In this document: positions 1,866 through 51,283 of the stretch, in pieces
How the letters are laid out: every line of letters starts with the position of its first letter
Numbering within the stretch: the stretch's first letter is position 1
Assembly (NCBI GenBank): GCA_964487135.1
Contig: CAZAOU010000003.1
Location: 1-60,547 of the forward strand
DNA length: 60,547 nucleotides
DNA from: an uncultured Candidatus Saccharibacteria bacterium
GTDB lineage: Bacteria > Patescibacteriota > Minisyncoccia > Phycocordibacterales > CAIRYW01
Direction of reading: 5' to 3'
The notes under the pieces: model-generated
Told to the model about the DNA's origin: nothing
Database searches by the model: none
What the model saw: only the letters and a program-made list of their open reading frames with translations
Translations under genes and position numbers: made by a program

Positions 1866-3527
<1,662 letters not shown>

Positions 3528-3567
3528 AGAGCTTTTAGCTGATAGCTATTAGGAAAATACAAACACA

Positions 3568-3598
3568 AAAGCCGGCGAGGTTTAACCTCGCCGGCTTT
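3568..3598 (+). terminator. Hairpin terminator after groEL
   Basis: aaagccggcgagg-tttaa-cctcgccggcttt perfect stem. Confidence 0.75.
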
Positions 3599-3681
3599 GA
3601 ATTTTTGTGTTAGTTTAGGAAAGAATCGAGCCTAAAGTGGGCTTGAAAAACTACAACAGAAATCCAGCACAATAAAACAAA

Positions 3682-4377
3682 ATGAGAAAAAATCCTATCT
3701 TCGTCGCTCTCGACGTCGAGCCCTTGCGAGCTGTCGACCTTATCGATCAACTCCATGATCTGGGTGTTGGCTTCAAGGTTGGCACTGCAACGGGTATTCA
3801 ACATCAAGCGACAATCGTCAAAAACGCTAAACTTCGGGGAGCACCTGTTTTTCTCGATTGCAAGTGGGCAAATACGCCTGATGTGGTTGCAGCGGCGGTT
3901 CGTGAAGCGGTCGAAATGGGAATCGATCTCTGCAATGTGATGATTGGAGACAATGGCCCTGAATCAATCAAGTCTGCCGTCGAGGCGGCACGAGGAAGCC
4001 AGACGCAAGTCATTGGTGTGACGGTCCTCACGACGCGTGACAAACATTCACTTCAAGCCACCGGAGTTGAAGTCGATGATGTGTCGGCTCAGGTCATGCT
4101 TCTTGCCAATTTGGCCAATCGGATGGGGTTGCACGGCGTCGTTGCGAGTGCACAGGAAGTGAAAACTCTGCGTGCTCATTTGGGCCGAGGTTTTCGCCTC
4201 ACCATTCCCGGGATTACATTCGGAGGCACCACCGGCAGTGATCAGAAACGAACTGGCACACCGAGACAAGCATTGGATGATGGTGCAACCGATCTCGTGA
4301 TCGGGTCGGCTATTTACAAATCTGCTGATCCGCGTGCGACGACCGAAGCGATTATCGAGTCGCTTGAGCTCAGTTAG
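3682..4377 (+). CDS. pyrF: Orotidine-5'-phosphate decarboxylase-like protein (divergent, GC-rich)
   Basis: IFVALD, FKVG, FLDCKWANTPD, PGI..SDQKR..TP..A...GA..LVIG; several catalytic positions altered. Confidence 0.75.
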   Translation: MRKNPIFVALDVEPLRAVDLIDQLHDLGVGFKVGTATGIQHQATIVKNAKLRGAPVFLDCKWANTPDVVAAAVREAVEMGIDLCNVMIGDNGPESIKSAVEAARGSQTQVIGVTVLTTRDKHSLQATGVEVDDVSAQVMLLANLANRMGLHGVVASAQEVKTLRAHLGRGFRLTIPGITFGGTTGSDQKRTGTPRQALDDGATDLVIGSAIYKSADPRATTEAIIESLELS

Positions 4378-4531
4378 AGCGGGCACTGAATTACCGGTAA
4401 AGTTCTTACGGCGCGCGAAACTATTCGCGCAATTTTTATAATTGAATTTTAAAATATATAAGGTAGAGTTGTTTAGGTTGCCCGTTTGGGTGAGGTTGGT
4501 TTTGGTTCACATTCAAAAAAACACACCACAC

Positions 4532-5314
4532 ATGACAAAAAAAGCTAGTGCACTTCGGCCGATCAATGAGGTCTGGAGTTTCTTTGAAATCCTCAAGGCC
4601 TTAAACGGTCTTCTCATCAGACCACGCAATCCGGATGGATCATGGGATGGTCCGCTTTTCGGTTACGCGGCAACGGCTCCCGACGGCAAAAACTTCGTCG
4701 GTAACGTCTATGCCGACTGTTCCGTCATCGAAGAGTCGCTCCATGCTATGACACTTCTCGCGCGTCGATTGCTTGCTCTGCTCGGCGATCGCATCGATTC
4801 GATTGATGCTTTCTTGGGTATGCCGATGGGAGGTCTTGCTTTGGCACAGGAACTCGCACGTCTTAGCGACCGAATCTATCTCTTTCCCGAGAAGAATGTG
4901 TTGGTTGCCAAAACCCCCACTTCTCGCGAGCAGGCAGATCTCGCTTTTGGTCGCCACCGCGTCGAACCTGGCATGAACTGCGTTCTGGTTGAGGACGTGG
5001 TCAATAATGTCAGCACGACCGGACGAGCGATTACGAAAGTTCAGGAGCAAGGTGGAATAGTTCTCGCGATCGTCTGCATGCTGAATCGGTCGCTTATCGT
5101 GGAGACTTCGTATCACCATGAGCCGTCAGGGTTCAACATTCCGATTATTGCCCTTGAGCGTCGGCAGATCGAAGAGTTCCAGCAAAGCGATGCGGAAGTT
5201 GCTACGGATATCGCTGCGGGAAATCTTTTTCCGAAGCCCAAAGACAATCGAGCAGACATTCTGCGCATCATGCGCGAAGCTGGCCCTGACTCGACTTCCT
5301 GGTTTCGGCTCTAA
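4532..5314 (+). CDS. Orotate phosphoribosyltransferase-like type I PRTase (divergent, GC-rich)
   Basis: GMPMGGLALA and VLVEDVVNNVSTT (PRPP-loop-like); follows pyrF; ATG at 4532 preferred over 4442. Confidence 0.7.
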   Translation: MTKKASALRPINEVWSFFEILKALNGLLIRPRNPDGSWDGPLFGYAATAPDGKNFVGNVYADCSVIEESLHAMTLLARRLLALLGDRIDSIDAFLGMPMGGLALAQELARLSDRIYLFPEKNVLVAKTPTSREQADLAFGRHRVEPGMNCVLVEDVVNNVSTTGRAITKVQEQGGIVLAIVCMLNRSLIVETSYHHEPSGFNIPIIALERRQIEEFQQSDAEVATDIAAGNLFPKPKDNRADILRIMREAGPDSTSWFRL

Positions 5315-5436
5315 AGAGCTCTTTCGTCATCATCGCGGGCATAAAGCTCGCAATTTTTATATTCAAATCATATCCATGCTATAATTTAGGGGTCGGAATT
5401 CTCTAAAATATTAACTAAAAAATTTAAACTAATTTT

Positions 5437-5994
5437 ATGTCACCTCTAATTATTACTCTAATTGTTCTCGCCGTTCTTGTTGTCATAATTATTGGAATGT
5501 ATAACCGTTTTGTTTCTTTGGTAAATCGAACAAAAGAAGCATGGTCAGATATTGAGGTTCAACTAAAACGTCGTTACGACTTAATTCCAAATCTTGTGAA
5601 TTCTGTTAAAGGTTATGCAACTCATGAATCTGGAACTTTTGACAAAGTAACACAAGCAAGAAGCCAAGCAATGCAAGCTGGAAATCCTCACGACAAAGGC
5701 GAGGCAGAAAATATGCTTAGCGGAGCTTTGAAAAGTTTATTTGCTGTTGCAGAGGCGTATCCAGATCTAAAAGCGAATACAAACTTTCTTGAACTTCAGA
5801 GAGAGCTTTCTGATACAGAAAATAAAATTCAAGCAGCGCGAAGATTTTATAACGGCAATGTTCGCGATCTAAACATATCTGTAGAATCTTTCCCAAACAA
5901 TATCATTGCTAAATCTTTTGGTTTTTCAAAAATGGAATTGTTTGATCTACCAGACGGTTCCGATGCTCAAAACCCTGTTGAAGTTAAGTTCTAA
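5437..5994 (+). CDS. lemA: LemA family protein
   Basis: N-terminal TM, YN.FV..N..EAWSDIEVQLKRRYDLIPNLV, EAYPDLKAN..F..LQ, AARRFYN. Confidence 0.95.
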   Translation: MSPLIITLIVLAVLVVIIIGMYNRFVSLVNRTKEAWSDIEVQLKRRYDLIPNLVNSVKGYATHESGTFDKVTQARSQAMQAGNPHDKGEAENMLSGALKSLFAVAEAYPDLKANTNFLELQRELSDTENKIQAARRFYNGNVRDLNISVESFPNNIIAKSFGFSKMELFDLPDGSDAQNPVEVKF

Positions 5995-7796: not shown

Positions 7797-8216
7797 TTAT
7801 GAAAGGACAACGAGACAGACCTCGTAGTTGTTTTCTCCTCCAAGGAGGAGGGCTCCACGGTGATGACCTCGAACCTCACGGAACTTTCTCGGGAGGATTA
7901 AGCCTTGAAGGATTATTCCTTGAGGCGTTACCTCGAACAGGTCGGCGCTGATGCCGGGGGTTTCATCAGAAAACTCCTCGAGTCTTACGCTGCCATTCAG
8001 CCAGAGTTCGTGATGTTGCTTGCCACCAGTGAGTCGAAATGCGTGAATGACGATCCCATTTTGATGGGAAAGAATTTCGACCCTGTCTTCTCCTCTTGCT
8101 CGGTAAGGGTTGCCGATGTCGATGATGCTTCCGGGTTTGGCTTGTTTCAGAACTCCTGCGAGGTCCTGAACGTTGCAGGTGATTGGGATTGCTTGGAGTA
8201 ACGGGAGGGTATTCAT
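7797..8216 (-). CDS. Hypothetical protein (GC-rich accessory gene)
   Basis: 139-aa ORF with upstream TTGACA..TAAAAT and a downstream hairpin plus T-run. Confidence 0.55.
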   Translation of the reverse strand: MNTLPLLQAIPITCNVQDLAGVLKQAKPGSIIDIGNPYRARGEDRVEILSHQNGIVIHAFRLTGGKQHHELWLNGSVRLEEFSDETPGISADLFEVTPQGIILQGLILPRKFREVRGHHRGALLLGGENNYEVCLVVLS

Positions 8217-8298
8217 ATGTTTGTTCTGATTTTATTATCAAGACTTTCTTTGTCAATCAGTTTTCAAATTTGATTTTTTTGCTAGTATTGAGCACACT

Positions 8299-8385
8299 GG
8301 AGGCGTCGCATAGCGGTCTAGTGCGCTGCCTTGGAAAGGCAGTAAGGGAGAAATTCCTTCGCGAGTTCAAATCTCGCCGCCTCCG
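8299..8385 (+). tRNA. tRNA-Ser(GGA)
   Basis: GGAGGCG/CGCCTCC acceptor, ctgcc-ttGGAaa-ggcag anticodon arm, long variable arm, GTTCAAATC. Confidence 0.95.
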
Positions 8386-8406
8386 AAATAAATTTTAATC
8401 AAAATC

Positions 8407-46481: not shown

Positions 46482-46961
46482 ATGAAAAAAATATTTTTTG
46501 TTTTAGCTTTAGTGGCACTCACAATTCCAAACCTTTCTTTTGGAGCTGGTGCTGCTACAACTGAATCTTGGGGAAATAACAATGATTTTGTTGAGAATTA
46601 TAATCCTTATGACCAAGCTAGTGCTACAACAGGTAATACTGTCAGTAGTAGCGATTGTAAAAAACCAAAAGATATTACTACTTTATTTGAGTACGGTATT
46701 TGTGTTTTAAGTGGTGCGGTAATTCCATTTTTGTTTGGTATTGCACTTCTAATCTTTCTTATCGGGGCTCTCAATTTTGTGGGAGCAGGAGACAATGAAG
46801 AAAAAAGAGAGGGAGGTAGACATATGATGATTTTTGGAATAATTTGTTTGTTTGTGATGGTTTCTGTTTGGGGATTTGTAAAGATATTAACAACAAGTTT
46901 TGGTTTTGAATTTGAGTTACCTTCTTTACCTAAAAAAGCTACTGGAATTTATGCGAAATAG
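46482..46961 (+). CDS. VirB2/TrbC-like pilin 3
   Basis: GAGDNEEKREGGRHMMIFGII.LFVMVSVWGFV. Confidence 0.8.
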   Translation: MKKIFFVLALVALTIPNLSFGAGAATTESWGNNNDFVENYNPYDQASATTGNTVSSSDCKKPKDITTLFEYGICVLSGAVIPFLFGIALLIFLIGALNFVGAGDNEEKREGGRHMMIFGIICLFVMVSVWGFVKILTTSFGFEFELPSLPKKATGIYAK

Positions 46962-47313
46962 TTTTAAGATAATATTTTTTATTTATCTGTTGGCTCCTTT
47001 AATTTCTTTCGCTGCCCAGCCAACAACTATAAATGAGATATTTTCAGGGTTTGTGGAGGGAAACATGTCAGGACTTATTCCCGCATGTATTTTGGTAGGA
47101 CTTATAACATTTCTTGCTGGTGTAATAAATTATGTTAGAGCGGGGGATGATGAGGAATCTAGATCAAAAGGTAGGGCTGTTATGATATACGGTGTAATAA
47201 TTATGTTTGTTATGGTTTCCGCTTGGGGATTTGTGCGAATTTTATACTATTCATTTTTCTCAGAAGAAATGACTCTGCCAAATTATTTACCAAATCTACT
47301 AGAAGCAAGATGA
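46951..47313 (+). CDS. VirB2/TrbC-like pilin 4
   Basis: RAGDDEESRSKGRAVMIYGVIIMFVMVSAWGFV; ATG at 46951. Confidence 0.8.
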   Translation: MRNSFKIIFFIYLLAPLISFAAQPTTINEIFSGFVEGNMSGLIPACILVGLITFLAGVINYVRAGDDEESRSKGRAVMIYGVIIMFVMVSAWGFVRILYYSFFSEEMTLPNYLPNLLEAR

Positions 47314-47753
47314 GGAAGAAAATATTGATCCCAATATTTGCATCTCTATTTGTGTTCCCATTATTTGTTTCCGCGGCAAGTGGATTTCCAGCACCAAAAG
47401 AATTGAAAGACATTCTTTGTTATATGGTTTTTTTGGCTCTTGATTTTGTTCCTCTAATTGTTGTATTTGCACTTGGAGCAATGATTCAGGGACTTATTAA
47501 ATATGTATCACACGGAGACGACGAAGAAAAACGCTCAGAAGGAAGAATGCTTATGATTTATGGAATTGTTGGACTGTTTTTTATTGTTTCAGTTTGGGGA
47601 ATATTAAAAATATTCGCGAATAGTTATAGTATTCCGTTTGGTATACCTCAATTTAAGCAAGATAGTTCTAGCACAAAAACTTGTGGCTCAAAACCTAATT
47701 CTGGCAGTAGTCAACAAAGTGAAAATTGCGAATTAGGGGAAACCGATTGCTAA
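47310..47753 (+). CDS. VirB2/TrbC-like pilin 5
   Basis: HGDDEEKRSEGRMLMIYGIVGLFFIVSVWGIL; ATGA overlap with pilin 4. Confidence 0.8.
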   Translation: MRKKILIPIFASLFVFPLFVSAASGFPAPKELKDILCYMVFLALDFVPLIVVFALGAMIQGLIKYVSHGDDEEKRSEGRMLMIYGIVGLFFIVSVWGILKIFANSYSIPFGIPQFKQDSSSTKTCGSKPNSGSSQQSENCELGETDC

Positions 47754-47787
47754 GGTATTTTTTAAGTTATATAGGTATTTCTTTTTC

Positions 47788-47850
47788 TAGCGAAAGGAAT
47801 CAGACTTTTTCAAGAGTTTTGAATTTGTATTTATTCTTAGCAAAATAAAG
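47788..47850 (+). repeat. Decayed partial copy (D') of the structured element
   Basis: tagcgaaaggaatcagactttttcaagag resembles the start of copy D; residual AGCA hairpin; right boundary approximate. Confidence 0.6.
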
Positions 47851-47888
47851 AAGAATTTTTCCATATTTTGAATTTCATTTTCTTTTCT

Positions 47889-48000
47889 TAGCGGAAGGAA
47901 TCAGGCTTTTTCCAGACTCTTGAGTGCGACTGGCACGAAAGTGAAGAAAATTTCAGTAGAAATTTTCTGTACTGGAAAAAGCCTGATTCCTGAAGCGCCC
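47889..48000 (+). repeat. Structured intergenic element, copy D
   Basis: Perfect 20-bp stem 47896-47915/47972-47991, gtgc-GACTG-gcac and agaaaatttc-AGTA-gaaattttct hairpins, GAAGCGCCC end. Confidence 0.85.
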
Positions 48001-48083
48001 TGTGTATTACTTTTTCCCCCACTCTGTTATATAATTAACACGCGAATTTAAAGGTCATTTAGTAGTTATTATAAATTTTATTT

Positions 48084-48398
48084 ATGCAAAATTTTACAAG
48101 TTTTCAAAATGCTATTACCAGCATTTCAAATCTAATAGGACAGGTAATACCTCTTATCATTGGTATTGCTGTTCTCCTCTTTCTTATTGGTTTGCTTCGT
48201 TATGTAACAGCTGGAGCTGATGAAGAAGCAAAAGAGGCCGCTAGAGGAATGATTATATACGGTATAATCGTAATTTTCGTGATGGTTACAGTGTGGGGAT
48301 TCGTTAGAATTCTTGCTAGAACTTTCTTCCAAGATTCAAGTTATGCAACTCCTCTTAGAGGTCCTGGTGTTCCTACTCCTAATAGTCCAATTTTCTAA
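48084..48398 (+). CDS. VirB2/TrbC-like pilin 6
   Basis: TAGADEEAKEAARGMIIYGIIVIFVMVTVWGFV. Confidence 0.8.
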   Translation: MQNFTSFQNAITSISNLIGQVIPLIIGIAVLLFLIGLLRYVTAGADEEAKEAARGMIIYGIIVIFVMVTVWGFVRILARTFFQDSSYATPLRGPGVPTPNSPIF

Positions 48399-48406
48399 AG
48401 AATTAA

Positions 48407-48724
48407 ATGGATATTATTGGTGCGGCAGCCGCTAATCCGGCAACAGAGCTTATTCTAAAAATTAACGCTCTAATAGTTAATCCAATAATAATTGTTATGT
48501 TTTCTTTTGCTCTTGTCGGTTTTCTCTGGGGTGTTAGAGGATATGTCTCTCATGCCGATGACCACGAAGCAAGAGTAAAGGGGGCACAGCATATTTTGTG
48601 GGGAATTATTGGAATGATGCTTATGATAAGTGCGTTTACTCTCGTTAGAATTGTTTTGGGAACATTTGGATTAAACGATACTAAAACAACTGAGGCAGTT
48701 GATTCAATCTTAGGTTCAAAATAG
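48407..48724 (+). CDS. VirB2/TrbC-like pilin 7
   Basis: INALIVNPII..FLWG..YVSHADDHEARVKGAQHILWGIIG. Confidence 0.75.
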   Translation: MDIIGAAAANPATELILKINALIVNPIIIVMFSFALVGFLWGVRGYVSHADDHEARVKGAQHILWGIIGMMLMISAFTLVRIVLGTFGLNDTKTTEAVDSILGSK

Positions 48725-48888: not shown

Positions 48889-49617
48889 TCAGGGGATTCC
48901 CTGGTCTCGGCGAAGGACGAAGAGCGAAGTGCTCTCCTCCTTCTCGTCGGGCCCATTCCAGATGTGGCCCGTTACGATAGCTTGCAAATCCGCGAACTGC
49001 GGATTTGGGTCAAATTTGAAACCGCCGGAGTGAGTTCCGTCACTCCAAGTCCCTACGGCGCTTCCTCTGGGAAGAAGGAAGAGGTGCTTTCCGCCATCGC
49101 CCGTCTGTGCCTCAAACGAAATGTCCTCAGCAGACCAACTCGCGTTGGTGAACCGGATTCCTTTGATTGAGGCGTCGCCTTTGGTGGGGCGATGAACCGT
49201 CATTGTCCATGTTCCGTGGGCGGGGTTTGTCCGCCTCTCGATGCTCTCATCGATGGCTTTTCGGCCACTGATGTGAGCGTTTTCCACGGTGCACCTCGTG
49301 ACGAGGCAGAACACCGCGATGAACCCACCTCCAAAGACAACCCACAGGATGACCTTCAACCACATCTCATTCCGCCGATGACCCTCGTGCCCATCGAGTT
49401 GATGGGGAGGGTTTCCTCCGCCGGCGCTTGCCGGTGCGGGGTGGTTGTGTTGCTGGTCACCTTGGCCAGCTCCCGTGTTCCCCCCAGCGGGCGCTGGAGG
49501 TGTTGCGGGTGTAGTTGGGGGCTGGTTGGTATTCCTCCGAGCTGGCGCAATCCACCGAAACCAGATGATTAGTCCGAGGGGGACTAATCCGAGCAAAACA
49601 ATAATTAAGGTTTCCAT
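48889..49617 (-). CDS. Hypothetical membrane protein with Pro/Gly-rich linker (GC-rich)
   Basis: TM, PPTTPATPPAPAGG linker, second TM, beta-rich C-domain. Confidence 0.65.
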   Translation of the reverse strand: METLIIVLLGLVPLGLIIWFRWIAPARRNTNQPPTTPATPPAPAGGNTGAGQGDQQHNHPAPASAGGGNPPHQLDGHEGHRRNEMWLKVILWVVFGGGFIAVFCLVTRCTVENAHISGRKAIDESIERRTNPAHGTWTMTVHRPTKGDASIKGIRFTNASWSAEDISFEAQTGDGGKHLFLLPRGSAVGTWSDGTHSGGFKFDPNPQFADLQAIVTGHIWNGPDEKEESTSLFVLRRDQGIP

Positions 49618-49629
49618 ATTTTCTTCTCC

Positions 49630-50799
49630 TTAAGGATTGTTTCTTCCACCGCTGCCTCCGGAGTTGCTCGGAGGATTCGGGTTACTCGCAGCCTTTTGGA
49701 GAAAGATGTCCGCGACACTTCCTCCGACTACTTGGGCATTTTCGAACCCTCGGACAACTTTTGCTCCGAGGATTAGATCAACTGTTGCAGTCATTGTGTC
49801 GCCGTCCATTCCTTTTAGCGCCGCCGCCCTTGTGGTAATAGCGGATGCATCTCCTTGGGCTTCCAGCTCTTTTGCCGCCTTGCTTCCTTCCGCCCTGATT
49901 TTCATGGCATCTCTGTCCCCTTCAGCCTCTGTCCTCTTTACATCAGCCGCCGCCGCCGCCGCCTTTTTTTCAGCTTCTTTTGCTTCGACTGCCGCCGCCG
50001 CCACCACAACCTTCGCTTGCTCCGCTTTGATTGAGCTCGGCAAAACCAGGTCTGCGATTCTCACTGTCTGGATGGTTAGTCCATAAGCTTCGAATTCGTC
50101 CTTGAGAGCCTTTTCCATCGCGAGGCTGATGTCCAGTAGTTTGTCCAGGATCTCGCGGACGCTCAACTTTCCGATTTCTTGACGGAACGCGGTTTGCACC
50201 GGTTCACACAGGAAAGTGACAACCTCGTCGAGGTTGTCTACGGCCTCCGACAATTTGACTGTGTCAGTGGTCTCGAAATTGACAATGATCACGGGTGTGA
50301 CTTGCATCGGCTGATCCAGGATGTGGCCAGTTGGACTTTGAGCTGCATTGACTTGCACCGATTCCACGGGGCAGAAGAGCTCGTTTTTGTTTTGAGCTTC
50401 TCCTGACGGAGAGCTTGCGAACCTCATTTGGCCTTCGCGGTCGAAGATTTCGATCCCGCAAATTCCAAACGGGGTGAATTGCAACCCAGCTCCAACAGTG
50501 TGTTTTCCTTTTTTGAAGAGGGTATGAAGCCCCTTCTCGGACTGTTTTAATGTCCGAAAGCTTGCCAACGTGTGGGCGAGCAACACAACCTGAAACACAA
50601 TGGTCACAGGTAGGAACAGTGTTCCAACTTCGATCGCCAAACACAAGGCGATCCCGATACCGCCAACCCAGTTTGTAACTTCCGGGCTAGGGTAGAGGGT
50701 GATGCCTCCGAGGACTTTAGCCCCGCAGGCAACCATGGTGAAAAACACCAGGAGCAGTAGTGTAATCGTTGCTCCAACGATTTCGATCAAGGTGATCAT
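49630..50799 (-). CDS. SPFH/band-7 domain membrane protein (GC-rich)
   Basis: N-terminal TMs, GLHTLF.K....GAGLQF, YGLTIQTVRIADLVLP, Ala-rich coiled coil with AEGD/AEGS/AQGD. Confidence 0.8.
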   Translation of the reverse strand: MITLIEIVGATITLLLLVFFTMVACGAKVLGGITLYPSPEVTNWVGGIGIALCLAIEVGTLFLPVTIVFQVVLLAHTLASFRTLKQSEKGLHTLFKKGKHTVGAGLQFTPFGICGIEIFDREGQMRFASSPSGEAQNKNELFCPVESVQVNAAQSPTGHILDQPMQVTPVIIVNFETTDTVKLSEAVDNLDEVVTFLCEPVQTAFRQEIGKLSVREILDKLLDISLAMEKALKDEFEAYGLTIQTVRIADLVLPSSIKAEQAKVVVAAAAVEAKEAEKKAAAAAADVKRTEAEGDRDAMKIRAEGSKAAKELEAQGDASAITTRAAALKGMDGDTMTATVDLILGAKVVRGFENAQVVGGSVADIFLQKAASNPNPPSNSGGSGGRNNP

Positions 50800-51137: not shown

Positions 51138-51200
51138 AAAATATTTTTGTGAATACAAAAATAAAAAATAATCCTTATTTTCTAAGGATTATTTTTGCTG

Positions 51201-51283
51201 TGGGCAAGGGGGGACTCGAACCCCCATGGATTGCTCCACTGGTTCCTAAGACCAGCGCGTCTAGCCAATTTCGCCACTCGCCC
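51201..51283 (-). tRNA. tRNA-Leu(TAG)
   Basis: GGGCGAG/CTTGCCC acceptor, ctggt-ctTAGga-accag, variable arm. Confidence 0.94.

What the first reader, a model, noticed from the sequence alone, without database searches (positions are those of the whole stretch)
3682..5314. GC-rich pyrF/pyrE-like pair with altered catalytic motifs
Seen: the decarboxylase has DCKWANTPDV where ODCases have DxKxxDIxxT (second Asp to Asn, Thr to Val), PGIT for PGIR, and VIGSAI for the phosphate-binding VGR. The PRTase has VEDVVNNVST for VEDVxTTGxS and an extended C-terminus. Established: PyrE plus PyrF convert orotate to UMP, and most CPR lack de novo nucleotide synthesis. Inference: either an orotate-salvage module or a repurposed pair acting on a different base or nucleotide; coordinated changes in both enzymes favour altered specificity.
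Basis: partly seen in the sequence, partly recalled or inferred. Interest (0 to 1): 0.65.

Follow-up and report, generated by a model that had tools for sequence, protein, structure and literature searches.

The report
Variant pyrF-pyrE pair in CPR bacterium
A tiny-genome (CPR) bacterium carries a GC-rich gene pair for the last two steps of UMP synthesis, and its OMP-decarboxylase belongs to a rare clade that has replaced three residues held to be universal or essential in that enzyme, so it is either a rewired natural version of a textbook enzyme or an enzyme with a new substrate.

Summary
ORF 3682-4377 is an OMP-decarboxylase-fold protein (PF00215, 128 bits; model pLDDT 93.5). It reads DCKWANTPDV, PGIT and VIGSAI where relatives have DxKxxDIPNT, PGIR and VIGRPI. 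ORF 4532-5314 is a divergent type I phosphoribosyltransferase with VEDVVNNVST. Both lie in a 1.7-kb islet with GC3 of 0.50-0.55, against 0.20-0.24 in the neighbouring genes.

The decarboxylase changes are not noise. They define a clade of six known members, all with Asn for the interface Asp, Val for the 2'-OH Thr and no gripper Arg. Among the 141 nearest cluster representatives, 139 keep the Asp and 137 keep the Arg.

The "coordinated change" argument fails. The variant decarboxylase sits beside canonical Thermus-type PyrE in two other genomes. The "EDVxNN" PRTase family sits beside canonical OMP decarboxylases in five loci.

One complete relative (G007) keeps PyrD, PyrE and only the variant decarboxylase. 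My best reading (about 0.5) is therefore a working orotate-to-OMP-to-UMP pair with a rewired ribose/phosphate grip. An altered substrate (about 0.3) is not excluded.

The genome lacks pyrB, pyrD, PRPP synthase, upp and udk. The PRPP source is unknown.

The parts
3600..5350 (.). GC-rich islet (GC about 0.52) between groEL and lemA
   Evidence: Composition profile. GC3 is 0.50 and 0.55 in the two genes against 0.20-0.24 in groEL, lemA and htpX.
3568..3598 (+). groEL terminator-like hairpin (14 pairs plus T run), upstream boundary of the islet
   Evidence: (I1).
3682..4377 (+). OMP-decarboxylase-fold gene (PyrF-like, 231 aa), member of the rare DxK(W/Y)xNT..V clade
   Evidence: PF00215 128 bits. 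TIGR01740 109.5 bits (cut-off 92.3). NF001273 170 bits (cut-off 193). AF2 pLDDT 93.5; TM 0.93-0.94 to 8cso and 1eix. Clade support 100%.
3856..3885 (+). DCKWANTPDV in place of DxKxxDIPNT: first Asp and catalytic Lys kept; interface Asp to Asn64, Ile to Thr65, Asn to Asp67, 2'-OH Thr to Val68
4207..4218 (+). PGIT in place of PGIR. This Arg is present in 141/141 nearest representatives and is kept as Arg or Lys in the other clade members.
4297..4314 (+). VIGSAI in place of V(I/V)GRPI: the phosphodianion-gripper Arg (ScOMPDC R235) is replaced by Ser209. Lys213 follows and is invariant in five of the six clade members.
   Evidence: PMC12874384.
4413..4430 (+). Terminator-like hairpin after the decarboxylase gene, with tail CGCAATTTTTATA. 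The tail recurs after the PRTase gene.
   Evidence: (D1).
4532..5314 (+). Divergent type I phosphoribosyltransferase gene (PyrE-like, 260 aa from ATG 4532; frame open from TTG 4442), 'EDVxNN' subfamily
   Evidence: PF00156 16 bits (cut-off 26.3). TIGR01367 pyrE_Therm 45 bits (cut-off 150). Twelve to fourteen family members found. AF2 pLDDT 87.6; best solved fold 4paw, then OPRTases.
4988..5017 (+). VEDVVNNVST: PRPP-loop with the acidic pair kept and the TTGGS 5'-phosphate loop replaced by NNxxT
5335..5351 (+). Terminator-like hairpin after the PRTase gene; a promoter-like site for lemA follows at 5356-5385

Best explanation
The islet is a two-gene module for the last two steps of UMP synthesis. 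It was assembled from two separately evolving CPR lineages.

Inferred mechanism:
1. The PRTase belongs to a divergent offshoot of the Thermus/Helicobacter type of PyrE. It joins orotate, or a very close analogue, to PRPP to give OMP.
2. The decarboxylase removes the 6-carboxylate to give UMP. It uses the retained core: Asp11, Lys32, Asp59, Lys61 (the proton donor), Thr118 and Gln188.

The decarboxylase belongs to a rare clade, long resident in the Taylorbacteria-like family of Paceibacteria. In this clade the three residues that grip the ribose 2'-OH and the 5'-phosphate are replaced: the interface Asp, the interface Thr and the gripper Arg.

I infer that the grip was rewired rather than lost. 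Candidate replacement residues are the clade-specific Asp67, Arg119 and Lys213.

Shown here: the fold, the motifs, the clade, the gene pairings and the gene content of the genomes. Inferred: the substrates, the activity and the compensation. The source of PRPP in this genome is unknown.
For: 1. Fold and family.
- PF00215 and TIGR01740 match above cut-off.
- The model has pLDDT 93.5 and TM 0.93-0.94 to E. coli and Klebsiella ODCase.
- The core catalytic residues D11, K32, D59, K61 and Q188 are invariant in the clade.

2. The clade is conserved and old.
- Six intact members share 33-54% identity in alignment A2 (57% for P0002 by BLASTP) with invariant N64, T65 and V68.
- The four-member core has 100% support.
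- G005 and G007 carry it at a syntenic site, and it is 52% identical there, like the neighbouring genes at 52-73%.

3. It stays next to OPRTase-type genes.
- The partner is a canonical Thermus-type PyrE in G007 and L048, another PRTase in G005 and the NN type here.

4. G007 is 100% complete and has a strong PyrD (235 bits), a PyrE and only the variant decarboxylase.

5. The NN PRTase family sits directly beside canonical ODCases in L047, L045, L002, G130 and G047. G130 and G047 also have PyrD. This argues that the family makes OMP.
- Its best solved fold match is 4paw (deposited as hypothetical protein HP1257 of H. pylori, which I recall is annotated pyrE), followed by OPRTases and APRTs.

6. 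No upp or udk is present in G000, G005, G007, G130 or G047. The pair is therefore the only recognisable route to UMP.

7. Charge covariation in the clade.
- Members with Ser or Thr at 209 have Lys213.
- The one member without Lys213 (P0070) has Lys at 209.
Against: - In yeast OMPDC the D96'A variant has no detectable activity, R235A costs 5.6 kcal/mol and T100'A about 2.5 kcal/mol. The DXKXXD motif is reported for OMPDC of all organisms (PMC12874384). The window protein lacks all three side chains and also the PGIR Arg.
- The genome lacks PRPP synthase, pyrB and pyrD. Neither substrate has a visible internal source.
- NF001273 and all pyrE models score below their cut-offs.
- About two thirds of related genomes manage without any ODCase, so the pair is dispensable.
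Confidence: 0.5

Rival explanations
1. Altered specificity. The DxK(W/Y)xN clade is a working decarboxylase, or related carbanion-forming enzyme, whose substrate is not OMP. The substrate could be an orotidine-like compound that differs at the ribose 2' position or at the 5' group (for example 2'-deoxy or 2'-modified, non-phosphorylated or differently esterified), or one that carries a different carboxylated base made by the neighbouring PRTase.
For: - The clade-wide replacements fall exactly on the side chains that contact the 2'-OH (D96', T100') and the phosphodianion (R235) in ScOMPDC, while the pyrimidine and carboxylate core is kept.
- Val at the Thr position and Asn at the Asp position remove polar contacts to a 2'-OH.
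- The stem of the clade is long, at 0.65 changes per site.
- The window genome and G005 have no PyrD, PyrB or PRPP synthase.
- The PRTase partner is unusually volatile: the G005 and G007 PRTases are only 24% identical although their decarboxylases are 52% identical.
Against: - The variant sits beside ordinary Thermus-type PyrE genes in G007 and L048, and is the only ODCase in a genome that keeps PyrD.
- No extra tailoring genes recur next to it. The neighbours differ at every locus.
- A positive charge is kept near the phosphate site in all members.
Confidence: 0.3
2. Non-catalytic or decaying copy. The decarboxylase, and perhaps the PRTase, has lost its enzymatic function. It is either drifting towards loss or kept as a binding or regulatory protein.
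For: - Loss of D96', T100', R235 and the PGIR Arg would be crippling by published mutant data.
- The window copy is the most stripped member, being the only one without a basic residue at position 179.
- The genome lacks the enzymes that would feed the pair.
- pyrF genes do decay in CPR: L002 has an in-frame TAG.
Against: - Both ORFs are intact.
- The variant residues are invariant across six proteins of 33-54% identity to the window protein, which is purifying selection, not drift.
- All residues conserved in the PRTase subfamily are kept.
- The models are confident.
- There is no DNA-binding domain. GfcR and PurR-type matches are negligible, at 19.8 bits against a cut-off of 300.
Confidence: 0.13
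3. Phage-derived or defence-related nucleotide-modifying module, or an assembly chimera that placed foreign GC-rich DNA into a CPR contig.
For: The composition is foreign-looking. Other GC-rich islets in the window lie next to tRNA genes.
Against: - There are no PADLOC matches, and only insignificant PHROG matches (E 0.09 and 0.42).
- No relatives were found in 2.9 million viral contigs.
- The same gene types lie in the same kind of islet in independent assemblies (G005, G007, L047, L045, L048) with host-like AT-rich spacers and terminators.
Confidence: 0.03

Closest known systems
Orotidine 5'-phosphate decarboxylase, bacterial type 1 PyrF (PF00215, TIGR01740; solved examples E. coli 1EIX, K. 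pneumoniae 8CSO, V. cholerae 3LDV)
   Same: The TIM-barrel fold matches at TM 0.93-0.94, with about 35-40% identity. It keeps Asp11, Lys32, Asp59, Lys61, Ser/Thr118, Pro-Gly and Gln188, has the same length, and lies next to an OPRTase-type gene.
   Different: The second Asp of DxKxxD is Asn. The 2'-OH Thr is Val. The gripper Arg is Ser, and in this copy the PGIR Arg is Thr. His87 is Met, with a one-residue insertion nearby. Trp62, Thr65, Asp67, Arg119 and Lys213 are clade-specific. It scores below the NF001273 equivalog cut-off.
Thermus/Helicobacter-type orotate phosphoribosyltransferase (NCBIfam TIGR01367 pyrE_Therm; nearest solved fold 4PAW, H. pylori HP1257)
   Same: It has the type I PRTase fold, the acidic E-D pair of the PRPP loop, the GxPxGG strand-loop and the NRS motif. 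The conserved Arg of the KRGY/FGRH loop aligns. It is placed next to pyrF.
   Different: The N-terminal (L/Y)TSGxHS motif is replaced by GPxVGYAG...VGxxY. TTGGS is replaced by NNxxT. The C-terminal CPLC motif is replaced by Q(D/S)DxE(V/I)A...KPK. It scores 45 bits against a cut-off of 150.
Site-directed variants of yeast and M. thermautotrophicus OMPDC (D96'A, T100'A, R235A; reviewed in PMC12874384)
   Same: The natural clade carries substitutions at exactly these three studied positions.
   Different: The laboratory variants are single changes in an optimised enzyme and are crippling. Here the changes are combined, conserved in nature and accompanied by other clade-specific residues. The activity is unknown.

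Membership tests
OMP decarboxylase (PyrF, PF00215 / TIGR01740) | Profile match above the curated cut-off, and the ODCase TIM-barrel fold | tested here: met
   PF00215 128.2 bits (cut-off 27). TIGR01740 109.5 (92.3). The equivalog NF001273 scores 170.1, below 193. The model matches 8cso and 1eix at TM 0.93-0.94.
OMP decarboxylase (PyrF, PF00215 / TIGR01740) | Charged network K-D-K-D': Lys (Sc K59), the first Asp and Lys of DxKxxD, and the second Asp from the partner subunit | tested here: not met
   K32, D59 and K61 are present. The second Asp is Asn64 in all six clade members, whereas 139 of the 141 nearest representatives have Asp. D96'A is inactive in yeast.
OMP decarboxylase (PyrF, PF00215 / TIGR01740) | Ribose hydroxyl contacts: Asp (Sc D37) and interface Thr (Sc T100') | tested here: not met
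   D11 is present. The Thr position is Val68 in the whole clade; Thr occurs in 128/141 representatives and Val in 6.
OMP decarboxylase (PyrF, PF00215 / TIGR01740) | Phosphodianion gripper: Gln (Sc Q215) and Arg (Sc R235) | tested here: not met
   Q188 is present. Position 209 is Ser here (Ser, Thr or Lys in the clade), against Arg in 137/141. The PGIR Arg is also lost in this copy, against 141/141.
OMP decarboxylase (PyrF, PF00215 / TIGR01740) | Genomic association with OPRTase and with the orotate-forming enzyme | tested here: inconclusive
   A PRTase is adjacent in the window, G005, G007 and L048. PyrD is present in G007 but absent from the window genome and G005.
OMP decarboxylase (PyrF, PF00215 / TIGR01740) | Catalyses OMP to UMP plus CO2 | not testable with these tools
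   This needs an enzyme assay or complementation.
Orotate phosphoribosyltransferase (PyrE; TIGR01367 Thermus type, TIGR00336) | Profile match above the curated cut-off | tested here: not met
   TIGR01367 44.9 bits (cut-off 150.25). TIGR00336 22.4 (106.8). PF00156 16.3 (26.3).
Orotate phosphoribosyltransferase (PyrE; TIGR01367 Thermus type, TIGR00336) | Type I PRTase fold, most similar to OPRTases | tested here: met
   The AF2 model has pLDDT 87.6. The best Foldseek hit is 4paw (E 5.6e-12, TM 0.74 on the target), followed by APRT and OPRTases from Aeropyrum, Burkholderia, Bacillus and human.
Orotate phosphoribosyltransferase (PyrE; TIGR01367 Thermus type, TIGR00336) | PRPP loop: acidic pair followed by a T/S/G-rich 5'-phosphate loop (EDVxTTGGS) | tested here: inconclusive
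   E154 and D155 are present. The loop reads NNVST, and NN is conserved in all 12 subfamily members.
Orotate phosphoribosyltransferase (PyrE; TIGR01367 Thermus type, TIGR00336) | N-terminal xTSGxHS motif and C-terminal CPLC motif of the Thermus-type CPR PyrE | tested here: not met
   They are replaced by GPLFGYAA...VGNVY and QSDAEVA...KPK.
Orotate phosphoribosyltransferase (PyrE; TIGR01367 Thermus type, TIGR00336) | Sits beside a bona fide pyrF | tested here: met
   Subfamily members lie directly next to canonical ODCases in L047, L045, L002, G130 and G047.
Other ODCase-suprafamily enzymes (3-hexulose-6-phosphate synthase, KGPDC) | Profile match to HxlA/HPS-type models | tested here: not met
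   TIGR03128 scores 23.4 bits against a cut-off of 200, and NF041755 23.2 against 500. All top fold matches are ODCases.

The most novel reading that the evidence does not exclude
The DxK(W/Y)xN clade is not an OMP decarboxylase. It is an ODCase barrel re-tuned to a nucleotide-like substrate that differs at the ribose 2' position or the 5' group, so that the CPR pair makes a nucleotide other than UMP by the ordinary route. A milder but still notable version, which my best explanation implies, is that it is a natural OMP decarboxylase working without the interface Asp, the 2'-OH Thr and the gripper Arg. That would contradict the reported universality of DxKxxD.
Probability: 0.3. Interest if true: 0.8.

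Novelty: new variant of a known kind. Interest (0 to 1): 0.52.

Why it matters
OMP decarboxylase is a benchmark for enzyme proficiency, and a 2025 review treats its DxKxxD motif and phosphodianion gripper as universal and essential. The clade described here is naturally selected and conserved. It has swapped out exactly the residues that hold the ribose 2'-OH and the phosphate, while keeping the carboxylate and carbanion core.

If active on OMP, it shows an alternative way to close and activate the barrel, and it gives ready-made compensating residues to test. If inactive on OMP, it points to a new reaction on this scaffold.

For CPR biology, the data show that pyrF-pyrE pairs are common in this order (48 of 151 genomes). 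Forty of those 48 genomes lack PRPP synthase. The pairs are mosaic and GC-rich. Where these cells get PRPP and orotate is therefore an open and testable question.

Tried and rejected
- **Defence or phage origin.** PADLOC gave no match and PHROGs only insignificant ones. Two scans of viral contigs gave no relatives.
- **Other ODCase-suprafamily functions (HPS, KGPDC).** Scores are far below the cut-offs.
- **PRTase-fold regulators (GfcR, PurR).** Matches are negligible and there is no DNA-binding domain.
- **A second PRTase or PRPP synthase in the genome.** The only other PF00156 hit (C10) is ComF-like and lies next to pilM. PF13793 is absent.
- **Wider membership of the variant clade.** A motif scan of 185,579 species genomes found only G005 and G007. 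A metagenome scan found one real member (L042) and three chance matches. The exhaustive profile search added only P0066 (identical to the G005 protein) and P0070.
- **Independent origin of the two variant subclades.** The free tree separates them, but the AU test does not reject a single clade (p 0.52). This is left open.
- **Target-site duplication.** A 12-nt repeat at the groEL and PRTase stop codons could be chance. Relatives do not share a groEL-lemA junction that could serve as an empty site.
- **Literature.** Searches for CPR plus OPRTase or dihydroorotate, and for D75N, gave nothing usable.
Full report
**1. What is there**

The window is contig C3 of a 711-kb, 35-contig genome. The genome is 97% complete and has 35% GC. 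Its relatives are small Paceibacteria-type CPR genomes, and one family member is deposited as Candidatus Taylorbacteria.

Between groEL (1884-3527) and lemA (5437-5994) lie two plus-strand ORFs:
- 3682-4377, 231 aa.
- 4442-5314, whose real start is most likely ATG 4532 (260 aa), because all homologues align from there.

The stretch 3600-5350 has GC 0.51-0.55. The two genes have GC3 of 0.50 and 0.55, against 0.20-0.24 in groEL, lemA and htpX.

Each gene is followed by a G+C-rich hairpin with the same tail, CGCAATTTTTATA. The spacers are AT-rich like the host.

**2. The decarboxylase**

It matches PF00215 (128 bits) and TIGR01740 (109.5 bits, cut-off 92.3). It falls below the equivalog NF001273 (170 bits against 193).

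It is about 35-40% identical to gamma-proteobacterial PyrF.
- FLDCKWANTPDV against FLDLKFHDIPNT.
- PGIT against PGIR.
- VIGSAI against VIGRPI.

The AlphaFold model is confident (pLDDT 93.5). It superposes on K. pneumoniae and E. coli ODCase with TM 0.93-0.94.

These residues are kept: Asp11, Lys32, Asp59, Lys61, Thr118 (Ser in most relatives), Pro176-Gly177 and Gln188. These are changed: Asn64 for the second Asp of DxKxxD, Thr65 for Ile, Val68 for Thr, Met87 for His, Thr179 for Arg and Ser209 for Arg.

A 2025 review gives the yeast equivalents (PMC12874384):
- D96' from the partner subunit belongs to the K59-D91-K93-D96' network, and D96'A has no detectable activity.
- T100' contacts the 2'-OH, and T100'A costs about 2.5 kcal/mol.
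- R235 grips the phosphodianion, and R235A costs 5.6 kcal/mol.
- The DXKXXD motif is reported for OMPDC of all organisms.

**3. The changes define a clade, not an accident**

A word-indexed search of 5.8 billion proteins found one close relative, P0002 (57% identity by BLASTP). It has the same KWANTPDV and lies in another GC-rich gene between AT-rich flanks.

A search of 151 related genomes found two more members, in G007 and G005, both in the same family.

A back-translated motif scan of 185,579 species genomes returned only those two. The same scan of 241 million metagenome records returned one real member, L042, and three chance hits.

An exhaustive profile search of 1.84 billion cluster representatives gave only two high scorers: the window protein and P0066, which is the G005 protein. 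It also gave one further member, P0070, which reads DLKYHNTANV and GKPI. The remainder of the best 150 are canonical at this motif.

In the 141 nearest representatives the canonical residues are almost invariant:

| Position | Canonical residue | Count |
|---|---|---|
| 64 | Asp | 139/141 (both exceptions are clade members) |
| 65 | Ile | 138/141 |
| 68 | Thr | 128/141 |
| 87 | His | 140/141 |
| 179 | Arg | 141/141 |
| 209 | Arg | 137/141 |

In a maximum-likelihood tree the window, P0002, G007 and G005 form a clade with 100% support on a long stem (0.65 changes per site). L042 and P0070 group separately, but an AU test does not reject a single origin of all six (p 0.52).

G005 and G007 carry the gene at a syntenic site: nucleotidyltransferase, cysS, decarboxylase, PRTase, ctpA, rplI, rpmA. 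Their decarboxylases are 52% identical, like the neighbouring genes at 52-73%. The variant has therefore been inherited and kept intact over at least genus-level divergence. That is purifying selection.

**4. The PRTase**

It is below every curated cut-off: PF00156 16 bits, TIGR01367 pyrE_Therm 45 bits.

It belongs to a coherent subfamily, comprising P0053-P0063 plus the G130 and G047 proteins. The subfamily signature is GPxVGYAG, GxPMGG, FGRH, EDVxNNxxT, NRS, Q(D/S)DxE(V/I)A and KPK. The window protein keeps all subfamily-conserved residues.

Compared with the Thermus-type PyrE common in these CPR genomes, the subfamily differs in three ways:
- The xTSGxHS motif is lost.
- The TTGGS loop is replaced by NN.
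- The CPLC motif is lost.

Its model (pLDDT 87.6) is most like 4paw, deposited as hypothetical protein HP1257 of H. pylori, and then OPRTases and APRTs. From memory, HP1257 is annotated as pyrE.

**5. The two sets of changes are not coordinated**

The variant decarboxylase is followed by different PRTases at different loci:
- A PRTase with CEDTITTGGS in G007.
- A PRTase with VEDVTTAVAS in G005.
- A textbook Thermus-type PyrE (TSGKHGS, EDILNTGGS, CPLC) in L048.
- No PRTase in L042. The L001 contig is too short to tell.

Conversely, NN-type PRTases lie directly beside canonical decarboxylases:
- L047: DGKFHDIPNT, PGIR, IGRAI.
- L002: the same type, but with an in-frame TAG.
- L045: a different ODCase type that retains the Asp-Ile-Pro-x-Thr stretch and the Gly-Arg phosphate motif.
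- G130 and G047.

The window's pair is a mosaic of two lineages. The argument that joint change implies joint re-specialisation does not hold.

**6. Gene content**

The window genome has none of the following:
- DHO_dh (pyrD), OTCace_N (pyrB) or the PRPP-synthase N domain.
- UPRTase or uridine kinase.
- Another real PRTase; the C10 hit is ComF-like.

Among 151 relatives:
- 48 have an ODCase match above cut-off. In nearly all of the 30 loci examined, a PRTase gene is adjacent or fused.
- 28 of these 48 also have a DHO_dh match.
- Only 8 of the 48 have PRPP synthase.

G007 is 100% complete. It has a strong PyrD (235 bits), a PyrE and the variant as its only ODCase. It has no PyrB and no PRPP synthase.

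A published survey agrees that Paceibacteria lack the full UMP pathway (PMC9166423).

**7. Reading**

The persistent pairing with OPRTase-type genes points to a module that still runs orotate to OMP to UMP. So do the G007 trio of PyrD, PyrE and variant PyrF, the NN family's pairing with canonical PyrF, and the absence of upp and udk. I put this at about 0.5.

There are hints of compensation in the decarboxylase:
- Members with Ser or Thr at 209 carry an invariant Lys213. The one member without Lys213 (P0070) has Lys at 209.
- Arg119 and Asp67 are clade-specific.

The main rival, at about 0.3, is a changed substrate. The replaced residues are precisely the 2'-OH and phosphate contacts, while the base and carboxylate core is untouched. 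A dead or non-catalytic protein is less likely (about 0.13), given the conservation.

Only an assay can decide between these readings.

**8. Composition and mobility**

In every host examined, the decarboxylase and PRTase genes have GC 0.52-0.58 and GC3 0.50-0.68, above their neighbours. This holds even at the vertically inherited G005/G007 site. I cannot explain this.

Within the one family there are at least three ODCase types: the variant, the 'AADF' type and the long type 2. The G005 and G007 PRTases are only 24% identical. Replacement is therefore frequent.

The region upstream of lemA is variable in the family and often holds GC-rich nucleotide genes:
- SAICAR-synthetase-like genes in G005, G011 and G004.
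- A PyrE-like gene in G016.
- A PRTase-ODCase pair about 2.3 kb upstream of lemA in G004 (coordinates).

Earlier notes of this scan, which are unchecked AI notes, describe similar GC-rich and swappable pyrF-pyrE cassettes in other CPR groups. They also describe other clades that lost the interface Asp and the gripper Arg. They agree with my reading, but I did not test them.

**9. Verdict**

The finding is a new variant of a known kind.

The interesting part is the decarboxylase clade. The PRTase is an unmodelled but probably ordinary CPR OPRTase family.

Noticed in passing
window 7797-8216 (-), beside tRNA-Ser 8298-8386: A second GC-rich islet (GC about 0.50) holds a 139-aa ORF with no Pfam, NCBIfam, PADLOC or PHROG match. 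It lies directly beside a tRNA gene.
   Followed up: partly
window 48889-50799 (-), beside tRNA-Leu 51200-51283: A third GC-rich islet (GC 0.50-0.61) holds two minus-strand ORFs. One is a 242-aa protein with a Pro/Gly-rich N-terminus and no family match. The other is a 389-aa SPFH/Band 7 protein (PF01145, 50 bits).
   Followed up: partly
window 46900-48724 (+): Four consecutive small paralogous membrane proteins (104-176 aa) share a ...Y(V/I)xxGDDEExxxxGRxxMIYG... core. This looks like a tandem family of pilin-like or VirB2-like proteins.
   Followed up: no
L056 (G005), L051 (G011), L053 (G004), L050 (G016): upstream of lemA: The slot upstream of lemA is variable in this family and often holds a GC-rich orphan nucleotide-metabolism gene. 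SAICAR-synthetase-like genes (PF01259, 113-115 bits scored for G005 and G011) occur in G005, G011 and G004, and a PyrE-like PRTase occurs in G016. In G002 and G008, secG abuts lemA directly. The window genome has no SAICAR-synthetase-like gene.
   Followed up: partly
L002 about 9333 (GCA_900089805.1, FLOH01001207.1): The canonical ODCase next to the NN-type PRTase has an in-frame TAG (…NWLIQ*ECIIFLDGKFGDIPNT…). The orthologue in L047 is intact.
   Followed up: partly
P0096 (753 aa, from the exhaustive search): This is a triple fusion. It has an N-terminal ODCase-like domain with a degenerate motif (FLHMNLIETPDN: Asp to His, Lys to Asn), a central PRTase domain (VVDDLITTAGT), and a C-terminal ODCase domain (FDLKFCDIGDT, IGTDL).
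   Followed up: no
window 3525-3536 and 5312-5323; 4428-4447 and 5349-5368: A 12-nt direct repeat, TAAAGAGCT(T/C)TT, starts at the stop codon of groEL and again at the stop codon of the PRTase gene, bracketing 1787 bp. A 20-nt repeat forms the tail of the terminator-like hairpin after each of the two genes. These could be an insertion scar or chance.
   Followed up: partly
L035/L036 (G007, G005) and all other loci with the pair: GC3 of the decarboxylase and PRTase genes stays at 0.50-0.68 in hosts whose neighbouring genes have GC3 0.20-0.52. This holds even where synteny and equal divergence indicate vertical inheritance between two genera. No explanation was found.
   Followed up: partly
151 related genomes (G000-G150): Forty of 48 ODCase-positive genomes lack any PRPP-synthase N-domain match. 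Eight of the 11 Prs-positive genomes are ODCase-positive. The PRPP source for these PRTases is unknown.
   Followed up: partly
L048 3815-6839 (GCA_964418085.1): Here the variant decarboxylase is preceded by a PfkB-family kinase. It is followed by a 61-aa CxxC...CxxC zinc-ribbon ORF and then a canonical Thermus-type PyrE.
   Followed up: no
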